A stretch of DNA of 32,000 nucleotides from the NCBI GenBank assembly GCA_026002795.1, contig BPGA01000001.1, positions 180,001-212,000 of the forward strand, given 5' to 3'. The DNA comes from Candidatus Saccharimonadota bacterium. Its GTDB lineage: Archaea; Nanobdellota; Nanobdellia; Pacearchaeales; GW2011-AR1. The first letter of the stretch is position 1; each line of letters starts with the position of its first letter. Both the position numbers and the translations under genes were made by a program. This document shows, piece by piece, positions 4,647 to 11,666 of this stretch. The notes beneath the pieces were generated by a model. The model was given only the letters and a program-made list of their open reading frames with translations, was not told the DNA's origin and did not search any database.

Positions 4647-4659
4647 TTTTTATCTTTAT

Positions 4660-4745
4660 GGGCTTACTAGGAATCGAACCTAGATCTGCAGGTTTCTTCT
4701 AAAAATAACCGAAGCCTGCTGTTCTATCCATTGAACTATAAGCCC
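4660..4745 (-). tRNA. tRNA-Arg (anticodon UCG) with a 15-nt intron at the canonical 37/38 position
   Basis: Reverse complement folds as a cloverleaf. Acceptor GGGCTTA/TAAGCCC, D arm GTTC-AATGGATA-GAAC, anticodon stem GCAGG/CCTGC, T arm CTAGG-TTCGATT-CCTAG. The loop reads CT-TCG-G, then intron TTATTTTTAGAAGAA (plus-strand 4694..4708), then A. CUUC of the loop pairs with GAAG of the intron, leaving two 3-nt bulges (bulge-helix-bulge). No CCA is encoded. Confidence 0.82.
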
Positions 4746-4799
4746 AAAAATAATAAAATTGTTATATTTTTATATATTAATACTTTTTAAAAATATAAA

Positions 4800-7552: not shown

Positions 7553-8980
7553 ATGAAAAAAACAGATATAGGCTTGACCAATAAAAAAAAAGAAAATTTT
7601 TCTGGATGGTATACAGAAGTTATAAAAAAAGCTAAACTAATGGATTATAGTTCTGTTTCTGGTGGAATTGTTATACTACCTAATGCATATTTTGTTTGGC
7701 AAAAAATTCAAGATTTTTTAAATAAAGAATTTAAAAAAATAGGAGTTAAAAATGCTTATTTTCCTAGTTTAATACCTGAATCTCTTTTAAAAAAAGAAAA
7801 ACAACATATTAAAGGATTTGAGCCAGAAGTTGCTTGGGTTACAGAGGCTGGAAAAACAAGATTAAGTGAAAGATTAGCAATAAGACCTACTAGTGAAACT
7901 ATAATGTATGATTCTTTTTCAAAATGGATAAGAAGTTATAAAGATTTGCCGCTGAAGATTAACCAGTGGAATAATGTTGTAAGATGGGAATTTAAACATC
8001 CAATTCCTTTTTTAAGAACAAGAGAGTTTTTATGGCAAGAGGGTCATAGTGTATTTTCATCAAAAGAAGAAGCTGATAAAGAGGTTTTAGAGATAATTAA
8101 TTTATACGAAAGAGTTTATAATGAATTGCTTGCTATTCCTGTTTTAAGAGGAAAAAAAACAGAAAATGAAAAATTCGCTGGAGCGGATTACACTTTAAGT
8201 TTAGAAGCCATACTTCCAAATAAAAAAGTAATTCAAGCAGCAACAAGCCATAATCTAGGACAAAATTTTTCTAAAGCTTTTGACATTGTTTTTCTAGATA
8301 AAAATGAAAAAGAAGAAAATGCTTGGCAAACCTCTTGGGGATTTTCTACGAGAAGTTTAGGTATAATGATTGCAACTCATGCTGATGATAAAGGCATGAT
8401 TTTCCCTCCAAAAGTTGCGCCAATCCAAGTTGTTATAATTCCGATTTTTTTTGAAGGTTATAAAAACAAAATTTTAAATGTGGCAAAGAAAGTAAAAGAT
8501 AAATTAAAAGAATTTGAAGTTTTCGTTGATGATAGAGAAGATTATAGTGCTGGTTGGAAATTTAATGAATGGGAATTAAAGGGTATACCTTTAAGAATAG
8601 AAATTGGACCAAATGAAATAAAAAACAAAGAAGTTCTTGCTGTAAGAAGAGATAATCTAAAAAAAGAAAAGATAAAAATAAGCAAATTAAATTCAAGAGT
8701 TAAATATCTGTTGGATGATATACAAAAAGAATTATTTAAAAGAGCAAAAAAAGATTTTTTAGATTCTATAAAAAGAATTAATAGTTTTAACGAAATAAAA
8801 ACAAAAGAGAATTTTGTTTTTGAGGTATGTTTATGTAATAAAATTTCTTGTGAGAAAAAAGTGAATAATCAAGGATTAAAAGTTCTTATACTCTCTTTAG
8901 ATAAAAATATCTTTAACAATAATTGTTTTGTTTGTGGAGAAAAATCTAGTTTTGTAGCTTATATTGGAAAGAGTTATTAG
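7553..8980 (+). CDS. proS: prolyl-tRNA synthetase, archaeal/eukaryotic type
   Basis: FSGWYTEVIKKAKL, RPTSETIMY and FLRTREFLWQEGH are class II motifs. The protein ends with the conserved C-terminal Tyr (GKSY). Confidence 0.92.
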   Translation: MKKTDIGLTNKKKENFSGWYTEVIKKAKLMDYSSVSGGIVILPNAYFVWQKIQDFLNKEFKKIGVKNAYFPSLIPESLLKKEKQHIKGFEPEVAWVTEAGKTRLSERLAIRPTSETIMYDSFSKWIRSYKDLPLKINQWNNVVRWEFKHPIPFLRTREFLWQEGHSVFSSKEEADKEVLEIINLYERVYNELLAIPVLRGKKTENEKFAGADYTLSLEAILPNKKVIQAATSHNLGQNFSKAFDIVFLDKNEKEENAWQTSWGFSTRSLGIMIATHADDKGMIFPPKVAPIQVVIIPIFFEGYKNKILNVAKKVKDKLKEFEVFVDDREDYSAGWKFNEWELKGIPLRIEIGPNEIKNKEVLAVRRDNLKKEKIKISKLNSRVKYLLDDIQKELFKRAKKDFLDSIKRINSFNEIKTKENFVFEVCLCNKISCEKKVNNQGLKVLILSLDKNIFNNNCFVCGEKSSFVAYIGKSY

Positions 8981-9002: not shown

Positions 9003-9131
9003 TCAGTTAAGTAATAATTCTAACTCTTGTTCTAATCTTAGAGTTTTTTCAAACAAAAAACTAAACTCTCTCTCAAGTTCATCTAAACTTTCCTCTAAAA
9101 AGTTCTCTTCTAGTTCTGTTGCTTGAGCCAT
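9003..9131 (-). CDS. candidate unannotated small ORF, 42 aa, acidic and helical (MAQATELEENFLEESLDELEREFSFLFEKTLRLEQELELLLN)
   Basis: My own translation: ATG at 9131, TGA at 9005..9003. It is below the ORF-track size cut-off. There is no Shine-Dalgarno. It sits directly downstream (minus strand) of the 95-nt hairpin. Confidence 0.3.
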   Translation of the reverse strand: MAQATELEENFLEESLDELEREFSFLFEKTLRLEQELELLLN

Positions 9132-9142
9132 TTTGTTTTTTA

Positions 9143-9237
9143 GCTCAAGAAAATTCAAGGCTTAAGACCCTAAATTGAAGAAGAATTAAAACCCAATTCA
9201 ATTCAGAGTCTTAAAAGAGCCCTGAATTAAATTGAGC
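9143..9237. other. 95-nt imperfect four-helix hairpin (structured RNA element or long imperfect inverted repeat)
   Basis: Hand-paired helices: 9143-9148/9232-9237 (6 bp), 9152-9160/9220-9228 (8 of 9 bp), 9162-9168/9208-9214 (7 bp), 9173-9179/9197-9203 (7 bp). The loop is 17 nt. In addition, 9122-9128 can pair with 9143-9149 (7 bp), which excludes the basal helix. Confidence 0.55.
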
Positions 9238-9278
9238 TTGTGTATTTAATATTTTTATTTATTTTTTTTATATTAAGC

Positions 9279-9328
9279 ACTAAGTTAGCTAGACAAACAA
9301 GATTTGTATTTGCTTTTACTAACTTAGT
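9279..9328. other. perfect 10-bp inverted repeat (ACTAAGTTAG / CTAACTTAGT) with a 30-nt spacer
   Basis: 9279-9288 is the exact reverse complement of 9319-9328. The spacer contains a nested ACAAA/TTTGT pair. Confidence 0.5.
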
Positions 9329-9405
9329 ACCCATAAAAGAAACTAGATTATGTGGTTTTTATATTTTTCTATTTTTTATTAAGTGGTTTTTTAATGTTGT
9401 CTCTT

Positions 9406-9425
9406 TTTTGTGCGTTTAAATTGTT
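9406..9425 (+). repeat. left copy of a perfect 20-bp direct repeat TTTTGTGCGTTTAAATTGTT
   Basis: Identical 20-mer at 10544..10563. Together the two copies bracket the wHTH-MNT/HEPN gene pair. Confidence 0.85.
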
Positions 9426-9516
9426 CCTATTAAAAAGTTCCATAATAAAAAGGCTAAATTAAGAACCCTCAAAAAATCGATAATTTTAAATATCAATTGA
9501 TACTTTATACTATCAT

Positions 9517-10080
9517 ATGGTAAGAAAAAATATCAAAAACGGTAAAAGGAACAAAAGAGATATTAAGGAAGCAATAAAAGAGTATTTTTTTGTTCATCCT
9601 AATGCCAAGATGCGAGTAAGGCAGATTGAAAAAGAGCTTAAATTGCCCCTGCCTTCTGTGATAAGATATTGTAAAGAGCTTGTAAATGAAGGAATTTTAA
9701 AAACAGTAAAAACAGGAAATGTTGTTTTTTATACAAGCAATGCCTCTAATGAAAATTTTATTCTTGAAAAAAAGCTCTTTAACATAAAATCTCTTTACAA
9801 GTCAAGGCTTATAGAATTCTTGAAAAGAGAATTTAGCAATCCTGTGATTGTTGTTTTTGGCTCTTATGCACACGGCCAAGATGTTGAGAACAGCGATATT
9901 GACTTATACATACAAACGCCTTCTAAAAAAGAAATAAACTTGGAAAAGTTTGAAAAAACTCTAAAAAGAAAAATACAGGTTTTCAGACATAAAGGCATAA
10001 GTGAAATAAAAAACACTCACCTAATAAACAACATAATAAATGGCATTACTTTAAACAATTATTTAGAGGTTTTCAAATGA
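9517..10080 (+). CDS. winged-helix fused minimal nucleotidyltransferase (MNT-type, antitoxin-like)
   Basis: N-terminal wHTH (VRQIEKELKLPLPSVIRYCKELVNEGILK). NTase motif VVFGSYAHGQDVENSDIDLYI (GS...DxD). Overlaps the downstream HEPN gene by 4 nt (ATGA). Confidence 0.82.
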   Translation: MVRKNIKNGKRNKRDIKEAIKEYFFVHPNAKMRVRQIEKELKLPLPSVIRYCKELVNEGILKTVKTGNVVFYTSNASNENFILEKKLFNIKSLYKSRLIEFLKREFSNPVIVVFGSYAHGQDVENSDIDLYIQTPSKKEINLEKFEKTLKRKIQVFRHKGISEIKNTHLINNIINGITLNNYLEVFK

Positions 10081-10484
10081 GAGATTGGAATGAATGTTTA
10101 GATAATCAATCAGCAAAAAGAACTTCAGTAAACAAAGAAAGAGCAAAATCTCTTTTGAAAACAGCAAATGAAAGAATAAGTCTTTTTAAAGAAGTAACAG
10201 AAAAGAACTGCAACTTTGTTTTTGAAGATTATTATACTTCATTAATAGAGATGCTGCAGGCGCTTGCTTTCTTAAACGGTTTCAATATATTGAATCATGT
10301 TTGCGTTGGTTTCTATTTAAGAGATGTCTTAAAAAGAGAGGATTTATTTAGGTTATTTGATGATTTAAGATATAAAAGAAATTCTCTCACATATTATGGC
10401 AACAAAATGGAATTTGAAACAGCAAAAGAAGCAATAGAAAATTGTAAAAGATTAATAAAAGAGATAAAGTTCATGATAAAATGA
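10077..10484 (+). CDS. HEPN-domain protein (toxin-like partner of the MNT)
   Basis: All-helical 135 aa protein immediately downstream of an MNT. The C-terminal DLRYKRNSLTYYG matches the HEPN R-N-x3-[HY] position, with Tyr where RNase-type HEPNs have His. Confidence 0.7.
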   Translation: MRDWNECLDNQSAKRTSVNKERAKSLLKTANERISLFKEVTEKNCNFVFEDYYTSLIEMLQALAFLNGFNILNHVCVGFYLRDVLKREDLFRLFDDLRYKRNSLTYYGNKMEFETAKEAIENCKRLIKEIKFMIK

Positions 10485-10543
10485 AAAAAGTTTTTAGGTG
10501 TTGAAAATTAAAAAAATTAGAATATTAAGATTTACAATTTAAA

Positions 10544-10563
10544 TTTTGTGCGTTTAAATTGTT
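10544..10563 (+). repeat. right copy of the perfect 20-bp direct repeat TTTTGTGCGTTTAAATTGTT
   Basis: Identical to 9406..9425. Lies 59 nt after the HEPN stop codon. Confidence 0.85.
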
Positions 10564-10616
10564 GAGCTTTAAGTTTATGTATTAATTTAAGATACAAATT
10601 TATAAATTTCTATTTT

Positions 10617-11666
10617 TCAATTAAAATGTTTTATTGTTTTAATAAGGTTCTCTTTAAACTCATCAAGTTTATTTGTTGGAATTTGGCCGCCGACAGCTTC
10701 TTCATGACCGCCGCCAGAAGCACCTTCAATTCCTTTTATTGATTCTAAAAGAATTTTTAAAGATTTTTTTCCTCTCATTGAAATATTGGTTTTTAATCCT
10801 TTTATATAAGCTACAAGAACAATTTTGTCTGGATAGTTATAGATAAGCTCATTTGATAAATGACCGCTAATGCTTAATTCTCCAGAATACTTAAAGAAAA
10901 GTAATTTTTCTTTATTGACTTGGCTTTTAGCTTTTAATAAAAGTTTTTCATATTTTTTGTATACCTCACTAAATCTTTTATGAATTTTTTTATTTTCTTG
11001 ATTTTCATTTAGTATTTCGTATGGACTTTTACAATTTATAAGAAATTCTATCATACTCTTAACATTAGAGGGTTTATCATTTAAAGCAAAACCTAAAATT
11101 CTAGCAATTTTGCCTATTGGTGATTTATAAAAGATATCTGAAGGATTTTTTGATTTTATTGTTAGGTCAGGAAATTTTTTTTCAAATTCTTTATAAAAAT
11201 TAGGAAAAAATTTATCGGAAATACAACCTATAACAGCAATCCATATGTCTTCTTTATTTTTTGTTATCTGATAAGAAAGATAAGTAACTGGTTCTTCTCC
11301 TTTCTTTTTGTTGAAAAGAGGATTATAATAATGTACAAACTTTGGAATGTTTTGTAAATTGATGTGATGGTGGTCTATCCAAAAAACAGGAATTCTATTA
11401 TTTTTAATTTCTTCAAAAAACTCGCCAGAAACAACTGGCTTGTCTAAAATAAATACGCAATCAGATGAAAATTCTTTTACTTTTTTAAAATAGCTTTTGT
11501 TCAGGTCTGGAAAAGATTTTATTGAAATGCCTTCTCCTTTTCCAAAAAATCTTCTTAGCAATAGAAAACTACATAAGCCGTCTTGATCATTATCAAACAT
11601 AAAAATAGGATTTTGATAGTTTAAAAGTGCTTTTTTAATTTCAAAAATTTGTTTTTGTGTTAGCAT
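10617..11666 (-). CDS. stand-alone DHH/DHHA1 phosphoesterase (NrnA/DhhP/RecJ-like), 349 aa
   Basis: DHH motifs FMFDNDQDG, FILDKP, WIDHHH and GCISDKF, plus the DHHA1 motif SGGGHEEAVGG. Confidence 0.85.
   Translation of the reverse strand: MLTQKQIFEIKKALLNYQNPIFMFDNDQDGLCSFLLLRRFFGKGEGISIKSFPDLNKSYFKKVKEFSSDCVFILDKPVVSGEFFEEIKNNRIPVFWIDHHHINLQNIPKFVHYYNPLFNKKKGEEPVTYLSYQITKNKEDIWIAVIGCISDKFFPNFYKEFEKKFPDLTIKSKNPSDIFYKSPIGKIARILGFALNDKPSNVKSMIEFLINCKSPYEILNENQENKKIHKRFSEVYKKYEKLLLKAKSQVNKEKLLFFKYSGELSISGHLSNELIYNYPDKIVLVAYIKGLKTNISMRGKKSLKILLESIKGIEGASGGGHEEAVGGQIPTNKLDEFKENLIKTIKHFN

What the first reader, a model, noticed from the sequence alone, without database searches (positions are those of the whole stretch)
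9406..10563. wHTH-MNT / HEPN toxin-antitoxin-like pair bracketed by perfect 20-bp direct repeats
Seen: TTTTGTGCGTTTAAATTGTT occurs twice, at 9406..9425 and 10544..10563, which is 1138 bp apart. I did not notice it anywhere else in the window. The copies lie 91 nt upstream of the nucleotidyltransferase start and 59 nt downstream of the HEPN stop, so they frame exactly this two-gene module. The two genes overlap by ATGA. A mixed-composition 20-mer is very unlikely to recur by chance in 32 kb. Established: MNT/HEPN pairs are abundant mobile type VII-like TA or defence modules in archaea. Inference: the repeats may be att-like duplications from site-specific insertion, or recombination sites of a minimal two-gene cassette. 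No integrase or transposase is nearby, which would make the mobilisation mechanism unusual. Two further oddities stand out. The MNT carries an N-terminal wHTH. The HEPN has R-N-S-L-T-Y where RNase-active HEPNs have R-x4-6-H, so it may not be a nuclease.
Basis: partly seen in the sequence, partly recalled or inferred. Interest (0 to 1): 0.62.

Follow-up and report, generated by a model that had tools for sequence, protein, structure and literature searches.

The report
Toxin-antitoxin cassette with duplicated insertion site
A small two-gene toxin-antitoxin-like cassette was inserted into a tiny archaeal genome and left a 20-base copy of the entry site on each side; related cassettes show the same scar, made without any integrase of their own.

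Summary
TTTTGTGCGTTTAAATTGTT stands at 9406-9425 and 10544-10563, with no third copy (up to 3 mismatches) in the window or the 535-kb genome.

It brackets a 1118-bp insert: promoter plus palindromic operator, a wHTH-nucleotidyltransferase gene and a HEPN-fold gene. The pair matches PADLOC candidate PDC-M05.

In at least 10 genomes of the same genus, proS and the DHH gene are direct neighbours without this pair, so it is an insertion. No close relative exists (best DHH homologue 63%), so this site was never seen empty.

The repeat is best read as a target duplication:
- Of 83 related cassettes, 9 carry exact bracketing repeats of 16-67 bp, against about 1% or less in two controls.
- The repeats are unrelated to each other and consist of local sequence, often a gene start or end.
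- Two such sites were seen empty in sister genomes.

This matches "insertion with long target duplication", described for restriction-modification genes in bacteria, whose mechanism is unsolved. A dedicated att site is not supported.

The HEPN partner lacks R-x4-6-H across the whole family (R-N-x3-Y instead), and the wHTH is the family norm.

This scan has reported the same pattern on other DNA many times. This is a weaker instance of it.

The parts
9406..9425 (+). Left copy of the 20-bp direct repeat (proposed target duplication)
   Evidence: Exact match, unique pair in window and genome. Its first 4 nt overlap the end of a degenerate tandem copy (9378-9409) of the native promoter unit, so the DNA to its left looks native (D11).
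10544..10563 (+). Right copy of the 20-bp direct repeat
   Evidence: Exact match. It lies 53 nt beyond the DHH stop codon, between the convergent HEPN and DHH genes.
9426..10543 (+). Inserted segment of 1118 bp between the repeats
   Evidence: Missing between proS and DHH in at least 10 congeners, whose gaps are 0-480 bp against 1637 bp here. G+C 27.2%, the same as the flanks.
9477..9516 (+). Cassette promoter with TATA-like box (9484-9492) and the 12-bp palindrome TATCAATTGATA (9491-9502), the likely operator of the wHTH domain
   Evidence: Similarity among four cassettes of 65-73% nucleotide identity starts here and is almost invariant: CGATAAYTTTAAATATCAATTGATA. More distant subfamilies have their own palindromes at the same place. 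Binding by the wHTH is inferred.
9517..10080 (+). wHTH-minimal nucleotidyltransferase (MNT), 187 aa
   Evidence: Pfam NTP_transf_2 at E 6e-9, Polbeta at 2e-8 and weak wHTH models on residues 26-71. PADLOC PDC-M05A at E 1.3e-13 over residues 18-155. The G-S-x10-D-I-D motif is read from the sequence.
10077..10484 (+). HEPN-fold partner, 135 aa, with R-N-S-L-T-Y-Y-G instead of R-x4-6-H
   Evidence: AlphaFold model pLDDT 95, and the best PDB matches are all HEPN domains: 2hsb, 1wwp, sacsin 3o10 at TM 0.66, and AMPylated HEPN toxin 8xdj. PADLOC PDC-M05B at E 1.3e-6. Pfam HEPN is only E 0.034. R101, N102, Y106, Y107, G108 and H74 are invariant in 35 homologues.
10534..10562 (.). Hairpin at the right junction: ACAATTTAAA / 9-nt loop / TTTAAATTGT. 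The left arm is in the insert and the right arm is in the repeat.
   Evidence: Read from the sequence. DNA fold -6.5 kcal/mol, z = -3.0; the left copy does not fold. It does not recur at the junctions of eight other repeat-bracketed cassettes. Unexplained.
9347..9377 (-). Native promoter unit of the minus-strand small ORF (TATA-like element 9353-9376)
   Evidence: TTTTTATATWTTTCTATT is conserved in six congeners. It lies about 20 nt from the small ORF start and 0-35 nt from the DHH stop in four of the six, about 100 nt in G001 and G002.
10599..10617 (.). Second copy (17 of 19) of the promoter-like element, abutting the DHH stop
   Evidence: the repeat finder D12. Its position relative to the DHH stop matches G007 and G009. 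This is the basis of the rival 'outer duplication' reading.
10617..11666 (-). DHH/DHHA1 phosphoesterase gene, right neighbour of the insertion site
   Evidence: Pfam DHH and DHHA1. Convergent neighbour of proS in congeners.
7553..8980 (+). Prolyl-tRNA synthetase gene, left anchor of the conserved neighbourhood
   Evidence: Pfam tRNA-synt_2b, HGTP_anticodon and ProRS-C_1. Synteny.

Best explanation
The 20-bp repeats are a target-site duplication left by a single insertion of a DNA fragment of about 1.1 kb.

The fragment carries a self-contained addiction-type module. It has a promoter with a palindromic operator, a wHTH-nucleotidyltransferase (antitoxin-like and probably an autorepressor) and a HEPN-fold partner (toxin-like).

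The fragment entered the spacer between the promoter of a small minus-strand ORF and the 3' end of the DHH gene. I propose that the two target strands were opened or primed 20 nt apart. The fragment was then joined in and the single-stranded stretches were filled, so the same 20 bp now stand on both sides.

No enzyme of the cassette does this. Host repair or replication functions do, or a factor acting in trans. This is the process called 'insertion with long target duplication'.

Once in place, recombination between the two repeats would delete the module precisely. Cells that lose an addiction module are selected against, which would explain why such scars are seen around these cassettes.

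Shown here: the repeat and its uniqueness, the insertion relative to congeners, the module's family, the recurrence of brackets in the family, and two empty sites for other family members.

Inferred: the staggered opening and fill-in, the host origin of the enzymes, the toxin/antitoxin roles, autoregulation, and protection from loss by addiction.
For: 1. The repeat is exact and unique in the genome.

2. proS and DHH are convergent neighbours with 0-480 bp between them in 10 congeners. The gap here is 1637 bp; removing the insert and one repeat copy leaves 499 bp.

3. Bracketing repeats recur in the family. Of 83 wHTH-MNT/HEPN cassettes with full flanks, 9 have exact bracketing repeats of 16 bp or more: 67, 38, 26, 26, 20, 18, 17, 16 and 16 bp. 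That is 10.8%, against 0.12% of 6806 mismatched flank pairs and 0.9% of 4000 random 950-bp segments of this genome.

4. The geometry is shared. In eight of the nine, the left repeat ends 44-91 nt before the start codon and the right repeat starts between -6 and +62 nt from the stop. The window has 91 and 59.

5. The repeats are unrelated to one another and are local target sequence:
- the hjc 5' end in G064 and G034
- the 5' end of a 93-aa gene in G057
- a pilin-like gene start in G217
- gene 3' ends in G170 and G209

6. Two of these sites were seen empty. hjc has one copy behind its native promoter in G067, G047, G039 and G079. G414 has the two flanking genes abutting.

7. The inserts have no terminal inverted repeats and no shared end motif.

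8. The DNA just left of the left copy is a degenerate tandem copy of the native promoter unit, so the 20-mer sits in native DNA (D11).

9. There is a precedent with the same traits: variable repeat length, no mobility genes, and repeats that span gene starts or stops (PMC2853133).
Against: - The site was never seen empty. The closest DHH homologue among 5.8 billion proteins is 63% identical, and every hit to the 20-mer in other collections is a chance match.
- Twenty bp is below the 30-bp threshold used in the RM study.
- The 18 nearest cassettes (57-74% MNT identity) have no bracket above chance.
- The insert has about 40-50 nt more non-coding DNA at each end than most other bracketed cassettes.
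- An outer imperfect repeat (17 of 19) and a junction hairpin are not accounted for.
- The enzymology is unknown, also for the RM precedent.
Confidence: 0.6

Rival explanations
1. Nested history. The real duplication at this site is the outer, imperfect pair of promoter-like elements (9358-9376 and 10599-10617). The 20-mers were imported with a 1.2-kb fragment, as the scar of an earlier insertion in a donor genome.
For: In congeners one element, TTTTTATATWTTTCTATT, serves as the small-ORF promoter. It lies 0-35 nt from the DHH stop in four of six long-gap congeners. Here one copy keeps the promoter position and the other abuts the DHH stop. Duplicating an overlapping promoter/stop region would keep both neighbours intact, as in the other cases.
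Against: The stretch between the outer and inner left repeats (9378-9409) is a tandem copy of the native unit, including bases outside the outer repeat, so it is not foreign (D11). The distances to the genes (140 and 114 nt) exceed those of eight of the nine surveyed cases. A 17-of-19 match of an AT-rich TATA-like motif has 9-13 near matches (2 mismatches) in the genome. Congeners G001 and G002 also have about 100 nt between this element and the DHH stop.
Confidence: 0.12
2. Site-specific recombination. The 20-mer is the identical core of attL and attR. A circular 1138-bp element was integrated by a tyrosine recombinase acting in trans: the host's single XerA-like enzyme or that of a passing element.
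For: Twenty bp is a typical att core length. The right copy lies in an 11-7-11 imperfect palindrome, ACAATTTAAAT/TTTGTGC/GTTTAAATTGT, which resembles a recombinase core site. The genome encodes one tyrosine recombinase.
Against: There is no third copy or similar site in the genome. No integrase is in or near the insert. Other cassettes carry unrelated repeats of 16-67 bp that are plainly target sequence, with no shared motif or palindrome. The left copy has no second arm. Relatives of the hjc-site cassette at other sites (L080, L053) show no hjc fragment in the 110 nt upstream of their start codons.
Confidence: 0.12
3. Campbell-type single crossover. A circular DNA that already carried the cassette and a 20-bp stretch identical to the spacer recombined with it by short-homology recombination. 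In this case nothing was newly synthesised.
For: It gives the same final structure. The two repeat copies at the hjc site are identical within G034 and within G064 but differ at 8 of 39 positions between those genomes, although the whole locus has co-diverged (75-81% identity). This shows ongoing exchange between such repeats.
Against: It needs a prior source of the identical 20 bp on the incoming DNA, and no such donor was found. It does not explain why repeats at many unrelated sites always match the local target.
Confidence: 0.1
4. The two copies are a functional element present twice (terminator, insulator or protein-binding site), or a chance match, unrelated to the insertion.
For: The right copy forms a hairpin between convergent genes. 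The 20-mer holds a TTTAAA that could pass for a TATA box.
Against: Zero of 100 shuffles gave 2 matches. There are no other copies genome-wide. The cassette's own promoter lies elsewhere, at 9484-9492. The right copy has no gene to drive. The left copy does not fold. The motif is absent from all other cassettes.
Confidence: 0.03

Closest known systems
Insertion with long target duplication of restriction-modification gene units (Nobusato et al. 2000, Gene 259:99, as cited in Furuta, Abe and Kobayashi 2010, PMC2853133)
   Same: A small addiction-type gene unit is inserted with no mobility gene. It is flanked by direct repeats of sequence that is single-copy in the empty site. Repeat length varies from case to case, the repeats are unique in the genome and they often span a gene start or stop. 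The mechanism is unknown (compared).
   Different: The cargo is an MNT/HEPN toxin-antitoxin-like pair, not restriction-modification genes. The host is a DPANN archaeon, and that study reports that no archaeal case passed its screen. The repeat here is 20 bp, below their 30-bp threshold. This site was not seen empty.
HepT/MntA (HEPN/MNT) type VII toxin-antitoxin systems (Shewanella SO_3165/3166; Aphanizomenon; PDB 5yep, 6m6w, 7bxo, 8xdj)
   Same: A minimal nucleotidyltransferase gene is followed by, and overlaps, a HEPN-fold gene. The G-S-x10-D-x-D motif is present. HEPN toxins of these systems are among the fold matches.
   Different: The MNT has an N-terminal wHTH. The HEPN partner has R-N-x3-Y-Y/E-G and no R-x4-6-H. 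The NCBIfam MntA model scores 26 bits against a cut-off of 60. Toxicity and AMPylation are untested.
PADLOC candidate defence system PDC-M05 (models M05A and M05B)
   Same: Both proteins match the two component models, at E 1.3e-13 and 1.3e-6. The A model also covers the wHTH region.
   Different: PDC-M05 is a computational candidate. I know of no experimental function, and the library gives no description.
Integrase-less elements flanked by att sites (CIME-type) and elements that exploit host Xer recombinases (IMEX). Recalled from general knowledge, not checked in a paper here.
   Same: A short insert between direct repeats without its own recombinase. A palindromic site lies at one junction.
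   Different: Those use a defined, recurring recombination site. Here the repeat is unique to this locus, and other cassettes use unrelated local sequence.
The Mycoplasma transposon with long, variable target duplications cited in PMC2853133 (reference 83; from my own knowledge this is IS1634, IS4 family)
   Same: The target duplications are variable and unusually long.
   Different: That element encodes a transposase and has terminal inverted repeats. These cassettes have neither. The genome holds only one broken DDE fragment, 139 kb away.

Membership tests
Insertion with long target duplication (Nobusato 2000; Furuta 2010) | The insert is flanked by direct repeats of a sequence that is present once at the empty site of a related genome | tested here: inconclusive
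   For this window the insertion is shown only by synteny at 56-62% protein identity, and the intergenic DNA cannot be aligned. The feature is met for two other cassettes of the family: the hjc site and G057 against G414.
Insertion with long target duplication (Nobusato 2000; Furuta 2010) | No transposase, integrase or other mobility gene in the inserted unit, and the repeats are not a multi-copy element | tested here: met
   The insert holds only the two genes. The 20-mer has two copies in the genome.
Insertion with long target duplication (Nobusato 2000; Furuta 2010) | Duplication longer than 30 bp (operational threshold in PMC2853133) | tested here: not met
   It is 20 bp here. Other family members reach 38 bp (about 40 bp with one mismatch in G064) and 67 bp.
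Insertion with long target duplication (Nobusato 2000; Furuta 2010) | Repeat length and sequence vary between insertion events of the same kind of unit | tested here: met
   Nine bracketed cassettes carry repeats of 16-67 bp with unrelated sequences.
Type VII HepT/MntA toxin-antitoxin | Minimal nucleotidyltransferase with the G-S-x9-11-D-x-D motif | tested here: met
   GSYAHGQDVENSDIDL in the 187-aa protein. Pfam NTP_transf_2 at E 6e-9. NCBIfam MntA_antitoxin reaches only 26.4 bits against a cut-off of 60.
Type VII HepT/MntA toxin-antitoxin | HEPN toxin with the R-x4-6-H RNase motif | tested here: not met
   No R-x4-6-H in this protein or in 17 of 18 other close-subfamily partners; the one match (L017) lies at the C-terminal end, far from the conserved motif. 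The motif R-N-x3-Y-[Y/E]-G is seen across the family, and H74 is the only invariant His. The HEPN fold itself is supported.
Type VII HepT/MntA toxin-antitoxin | The antitoxin neutralises the toxin by AMPylation of a tyrosine | not testable with these tools
   Y106 and Y107 are invariant, which is only a lead.
PADLOC PDC-M05 candidate system | Adjacent genes that match both component models | tested here: met
   PDC-M05A at E 1.3e-13 and PDC-M05B at E 1.3e-6 on the two overlapping genes.
Transposon / insertion sequence | Terminal inverted repeats and a transposase | tested here: not met
   The best inverted match between the insert ends is 6 nt here and 5-10 nt in eight other cases. There is no transposase in the insert.
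Site-specific integrative element (att core) | A recombinase gene in or next to the element, and a recurring attachment sequence | tested here: not met
   The only tyrosine recombinase lies 106 kb away. The 20-mer occurs nowhere else. Other cassettes use unrelated repeats.

The most novel reading that the evidence does not exclude
wHTH-MNT/HEPN cassettes of DPANN archaea may move by a dedicated insertion route that has not been described and needs no recombinase of their own. It would make target duplications of variable length (16-67 bp) and would be reversible. The two repeat copies at the hjc site stay identical within each of two genomes, although the locus has diverged by about 20-25% between them. 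That would fit repeated excision and re-entry, or very efficient short-tract gene conversion. If so, the 20-mer pair here would be an active recombination substrate rather than a dead scar.
Probability: 0.15. Interest if true: 0.8.

Novelty: new member of a known kind. Interest (0 to 1): 0.42.

Why it matters
How toxin-antitoxin and small defence modules move between genomes without mobility genes is an old open question. The 2009 survey that first proposed MNT-HEPN as a mobile module reports recent insertions, but the words 'direct repeat' and 'flanked' do not occur in its text (PMC2701414).

This locus and its relatives show that, in very small archaeal genomes, such cassettes enter with a duplication of the target. 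The duplication often rebuilds the start or end of the neighbouring gene. The same scar is described for restriction-modification units in bacteria.

This links two classes of addiction modules to one unexplained insertion process. It also gives concrete junctions on which the process can be studied.

For this particular window the gain is modest. The repeat is short, the site was never seen empty, and this scan has already reported clearer examples on other DNA.

Tried and rejected
- **Empty site through the 20-mer.** Exact scans of genome contigs (4 hits), metagenome contigs (3 hits) and viral contigs (0 hits) gave only unrelated chance matches in bacterial or higher-G+C contigs.
- **Closer relatives.** The exact-protein look-up of DHH found nothing, and that of ProS found only an identical Logan contig. 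The best DHH homologue anywhere is 63% identical.
- **RNA genes as integration targets.** No tRNA lies near the locus, and Rfam gave only a sub-threshold chance hit.
- **Foreign composition.** The insert has the same G+C as its flanks.
- **A shared left-end motif.** TATTAAA stands within 3 nt of the left junction in the window, at the hjc site and in G057. I rejected it because it is absent from five other bracketed cassettes and was noticed after the fact.
- **Terminal inverted repeats or junction hairpins as a family feature.** Neither was found.
- **Bracketing repeats in the closest subfamily.** Eighteen cassettes gave 8-13 bp, equal to the null. The signal appeared only when the wider family was sampled.
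- **Recent copy of the in-genome paralogue.** The paralogue (G000:43676-44645) is only 73% identical in DNA and has no bracket.
- **Residue-level match of R101/Y106 to the catalytic R/H of solved HEPN proteins.** Sequence and profile searches of PDB gave only chance hits. The equivalence therefore rests on motif form alone.
Full report
**Observation**

The 20-mer TTTTGTGCGTTTAAATTGTT is present exactly at 9406-9425 and 10544-10563. The identity ends sharply on both sides.
- With up to three mismatches there are only these two copies in the window. The shuffle mean is 0.06, and none of 100 shuffles reached two.
- There are only these two copies in the whole genome, a single contig of 535,452 bp and 28.6% G+C.
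- I listed all isolated exact direct repeats of 16 bp or more with copies within 3 kb. This pair is the longest with both copies in non-coding DNA, apart from one 31-bp pair that looks like tRNA sequence.
- An independent Logan assembly of run DRR290133 is identical over 5.5 kb, so the structure is not an assembly artefact.

**What lies between the repeats**

The first gene (9517-10080) encodes a 187-aa protein.
- It has a nucleotidyltransferase domain: Pfam NTP_transf_2 at E 6e-9 and Polbeta at 2e-8.
- The G-S-x10-D-I-D motif is present.
- Weak winged-helix models match residues 26-71.

The second gene (10077-10484) encodes a 135-aa helical protein.
- Pfam HEPN reaches only E 0.034.
- An AlphaFold model built on 35 homologues has pLDDT 95. 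Its best PDB matches are all HEPN domains: AF_0298 2hsb, 1wwp, sacsin 3o10 at TM 0.66, and the AMPylated HEPN toxin 8xdj. The E-values are weak, 0.025 and above.
- The two proteins match the two components of the PADLOC candidate system PDC-M05, at E 1.3e-13 and 1.3e-6.

- The protein has no R-x4-6-H.
- R101-N-S-L-T-Y106-Y107-G108 is invariant in 35 homologues.
- Wider relatives have R-N-x3-Y-[Y/E]-G.
- The only invariant histidine is H74.

I could not align these residues to solved HEPN proteins by sequence. The equivalence of Y106 to the catalytic His therefore rests on motif form only.

The wHTH is not an oddity. Genes of this architecture were found in 182 of 401 genomes sampled from the order.

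**The conserved unit**

I aligned four cassettes of 65-73% nucleotide identity. One of them is a paralogue in this genome at G000:43676-44645. Similarity starts at window 9477 and ends at the HEPN stop.

The first 26 nt are almost invariant: CGATAAYTTTAAATATCAATTGATA. They hold a TATA-like box and the 12-bp palindrome TATCAATTGATA, between the box and the start codon. More distant subfamilies have different palindromes at the same place.

I infer that the wHTH binds this operator and that the module represses itself. This was not tested.

**It is an insertion**

In 10 genomes of the same genus, tblastn shows proS and the DHH gene as convergent neighbours. The gap between them is either 0-60 bp or 400-480 bp, and it never holds an MNT/HEPN pair. 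The gap here is 1637 bp. Removing the insert and one repeat copy leaves 499 bp.

The long type of gap holds, on the minus strand:
- two small ORFs and a conserved hairpin
- a conserved TATA-like element, TTTTTATATWTTTCTATT, which lies about 20 nt from the start of the first small ORF and 0-35 nt from the DHH stop in four of six congeners

The cassette proteins are also better conserved across lineages than the host's own genes. The HEPN partner is 67-76% identical to more than a hundred proteins, while the best DHH homologue anywhere is 63% identical. This fits horizontal spread.

No genome close enough to show the empty site exists in any collection I could search.

**Are bracketing repeats a property of the cassette family?**

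The 18 nearest cassettes show nothing above chance: longest shared word 8-13 bp, the same as mismatched flank pairs.

A wider sample changed the picture. I took 83 cassettes with full flanks. For each I compared -350 to -30 from the start codon with -40 to +350 from the stop.

| Set | Share with an exact bracketing repeat of 16 bp or more |
|---|---|
| 83 cassettes | 9 (10.8%): 67, 38, 26, 26, 20, 18, 17, 16 and 16 bp |
| 6806 mismatched flank pairs | 0.12% |
| 4000 random 950-bp segments of this genome | 0.9%, mostly inside repeat-domain genes |

Two of the nine (G034 and G064) share one event.

In eight of the nine, the left repeat ends 44-91 nt before the start codon, and the right repeat starts between 6 nt before and 62 nt after the stop. 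The window (91 and 59) is at the long end of this range but inside it.

The repeats share no sequence with each other, and they are local target DNA:
- the first codons of hjc (G064, G034)
- the first 22 codons of a 93-aa gene (G057)
- the first five codons of a pilin-like gene (G217)
- the last codons of minus-strand genes (G170, G209)

**Empty sites for two of these**

- **hjc site.** In G067, G047, G039 and G079 hjc has one copy of the repeated sequence, behind a promoter that matches the one now to the left of the cassette in G064 and G034.
- **G057 site.** In G414 the 195-aa left neighbour abuts the intact target gene. In G057 the same neighbour is followed by a 22-codon stub of the target, then the cassette, then the intact target gene.

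These cassettes therefore do insert with a duplication of tens of base pairs, which rebuilds the gene end they land in.

The cassette also moves as a unit. In two species of this window's genus it sits one gene apart in the same operon.

**Mechanism**

- The inserts have no terminal inverted repeats and no shared end motif.
- They carry no recombinase.
- Repeat length varies from 16 to 67 bp, which rules out an enzyme with a fixed stagger.
- This genome has one tyrosine recombinase 106 kb away and one broken DDE fragment 139 kb away. It has no Cas1, serine recombinase or TnpB hit.

The closest described process is 'insertion with long target duplication' of restriction-modification units. I read Furuta et al. 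2010, which describes the following (PMC2853133):
- long and variable target duplications
- no other mobile element
- repeats unique in the genome
- repeats that often span a translation start or stop, so that the target gene stays intact
- no established mechanism; the authors suggest double-strand breakage

The lead to that paper came from earlier notes of this scan. I had reached the duplication reading on my own beforehand.

My proposal of staggered opening, joining and fill-in by host functions is inference. So is the idea that addiction protects the module against loss through recombination between the repeats.

**Details of this site that stay open**

First, there is an outer imperfect repeat. 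The promoter-like element occurs at 9358-9376 and again, 17 of 19, at 10599-10617 next to the DHH stop. This could be the true duplication, with the 20-mers imported.

I rate that lower for two reasons. The stretch just left of the left 20-mer (9378-9409) is a tandem copy of the native unit 9347-9377, including bases outside the outer repeat, so it is native DNA (D11). Such AT-rich motifs also have 9-13 near matches (2 mismatches) in the genome.

Second, the last 10 nt of the insert are the reverse complement of 10 nt inside the right repeat. They form a hairpin (z = -3.0) that the left copy lacks, and this does not recur in other cases. It can be read as an 11-7-11 recombinase-like core site, which keeps a site-specific rival alive at low probability.

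**An observation that no simple scar model explains**

G034 and G064 share the hjc insertion, and the whole locus is collinear. Identity between the two genomes is 75% overall, 79% for the MNT gene, 81% for HEPN and 78% for hjc.

Within each genome, however, the two repeat copies are identical over 38 bp (G034) and 26 bp (G064, 39 of 40 if extended). Between the genomes the copies differ at 8 of 39 positions.

Independent decay would be expected to give several differences within each genome. Either the copies exchange sequence or the cassette leaves and re-enters. This is the basis of the 'novel case'.

**Verdict**

The module is a member of a very common DPANN family with a non-canonical HEPN partner.

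The insertion mode has a published precedent for other addiction modules. This scan has already reported it for MNT/HEPN cassettes on many other genomes, often with longer repeats and visible empty sites. This window is a short-repeat instance whose own empty site could not be seen.

Noticed in passing
window 9003-9345, minus strand: The spacer left of the cassette holds two small ORFs (35 aa at 9227-9334; 51 aa called at 9003-9158, with a conserved ATG at 9125). The minus-strand RNA is very structured, with two long hairpins: -72 kcal/mol, z = -10.1. The 9166-9263 part matches eight congeners at 73-81% identity although it is intergenic. It could be a small-protein operon with a structured leader or an unknown RNA.
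   Followed up: partly
window 9038-9054 and 9948-9964: A perfect 17-bp inverted repeat links the small minus-strand ORF and the MNT gene. Because the genes lie on opposite strands, both mRNAs contain GUUUGAAAAAACUCUAA and both proteins contain FEKTL. The in-genome paralogue lacks it. This may be chance or a recombination trace.
   Followed up: no
L061 (G064:C2) and L078 (G034:C1), hjc 5' end: The two copies of the target duplication are identical within each genome but differ at 8 of 39 positions between the genomes, while the cassette and flanks have co-diverged (75-81% identity). This implies gene conversion or repeated excision and re-entry.
   Followed up: partly
L047 (G335:C15), L048 (G019:C5), L100 (G217:C24): Cassettes of different subfamilies sit at neighbouring gene junctions of the same pilin-like (class III signal peptide) operon in three genomes. 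Two of them are at the start of the same gene. This may be an insertion hot spot.
   Followed up: no
L087 (G082:C1:387200-390076): Two different wHTH-MNT/HEPN cassettes stand in tandem and share a 19-nt promoter word, CAAAAGATTTAAATATTAA. A shared flank word can therefore also come from stacked cassettes and not only from target duplication.
   Followed up: no
loci L049-L139, 45 nt upstream of each MNT start: Every subfamily has its own palindrome or repeated half-sites between the TATA box and the start codon, for example GGACAATTGT, ACATATGT, GCAGATGC and TAACATATGTTA. It looks as if wHTH specificity and operator have co-diverged.
   Followed up: no
L009 (G001), L012 (G002), L014 (G006), just beyond the DHH stop: A G+C-rich stretch of 40-60 nt with a short hairpin (for example CTCGACATCGCTAGGGCGAG) lies in an otherwise AT-rich spacer of three congeners and is absent from the others. 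It may be a small mobile or structured element.
   Followed up: no
G000:C1:50208-50672 (outside the window): This is the only DDE transposase hit of the genome (IS4-type model, positions 60-200 of 200, one in-frame TGA). It lies about 6 kb from the paralogous MNT/HEPN cassette at 43676-44645.
   Followed up: no
window 4658-4746, minus strand: ARAGORN calls tRNA-Arg(TCG) at 89 nt, longer than a standard tRNA, so it may hold an intron.
   Followed up: no
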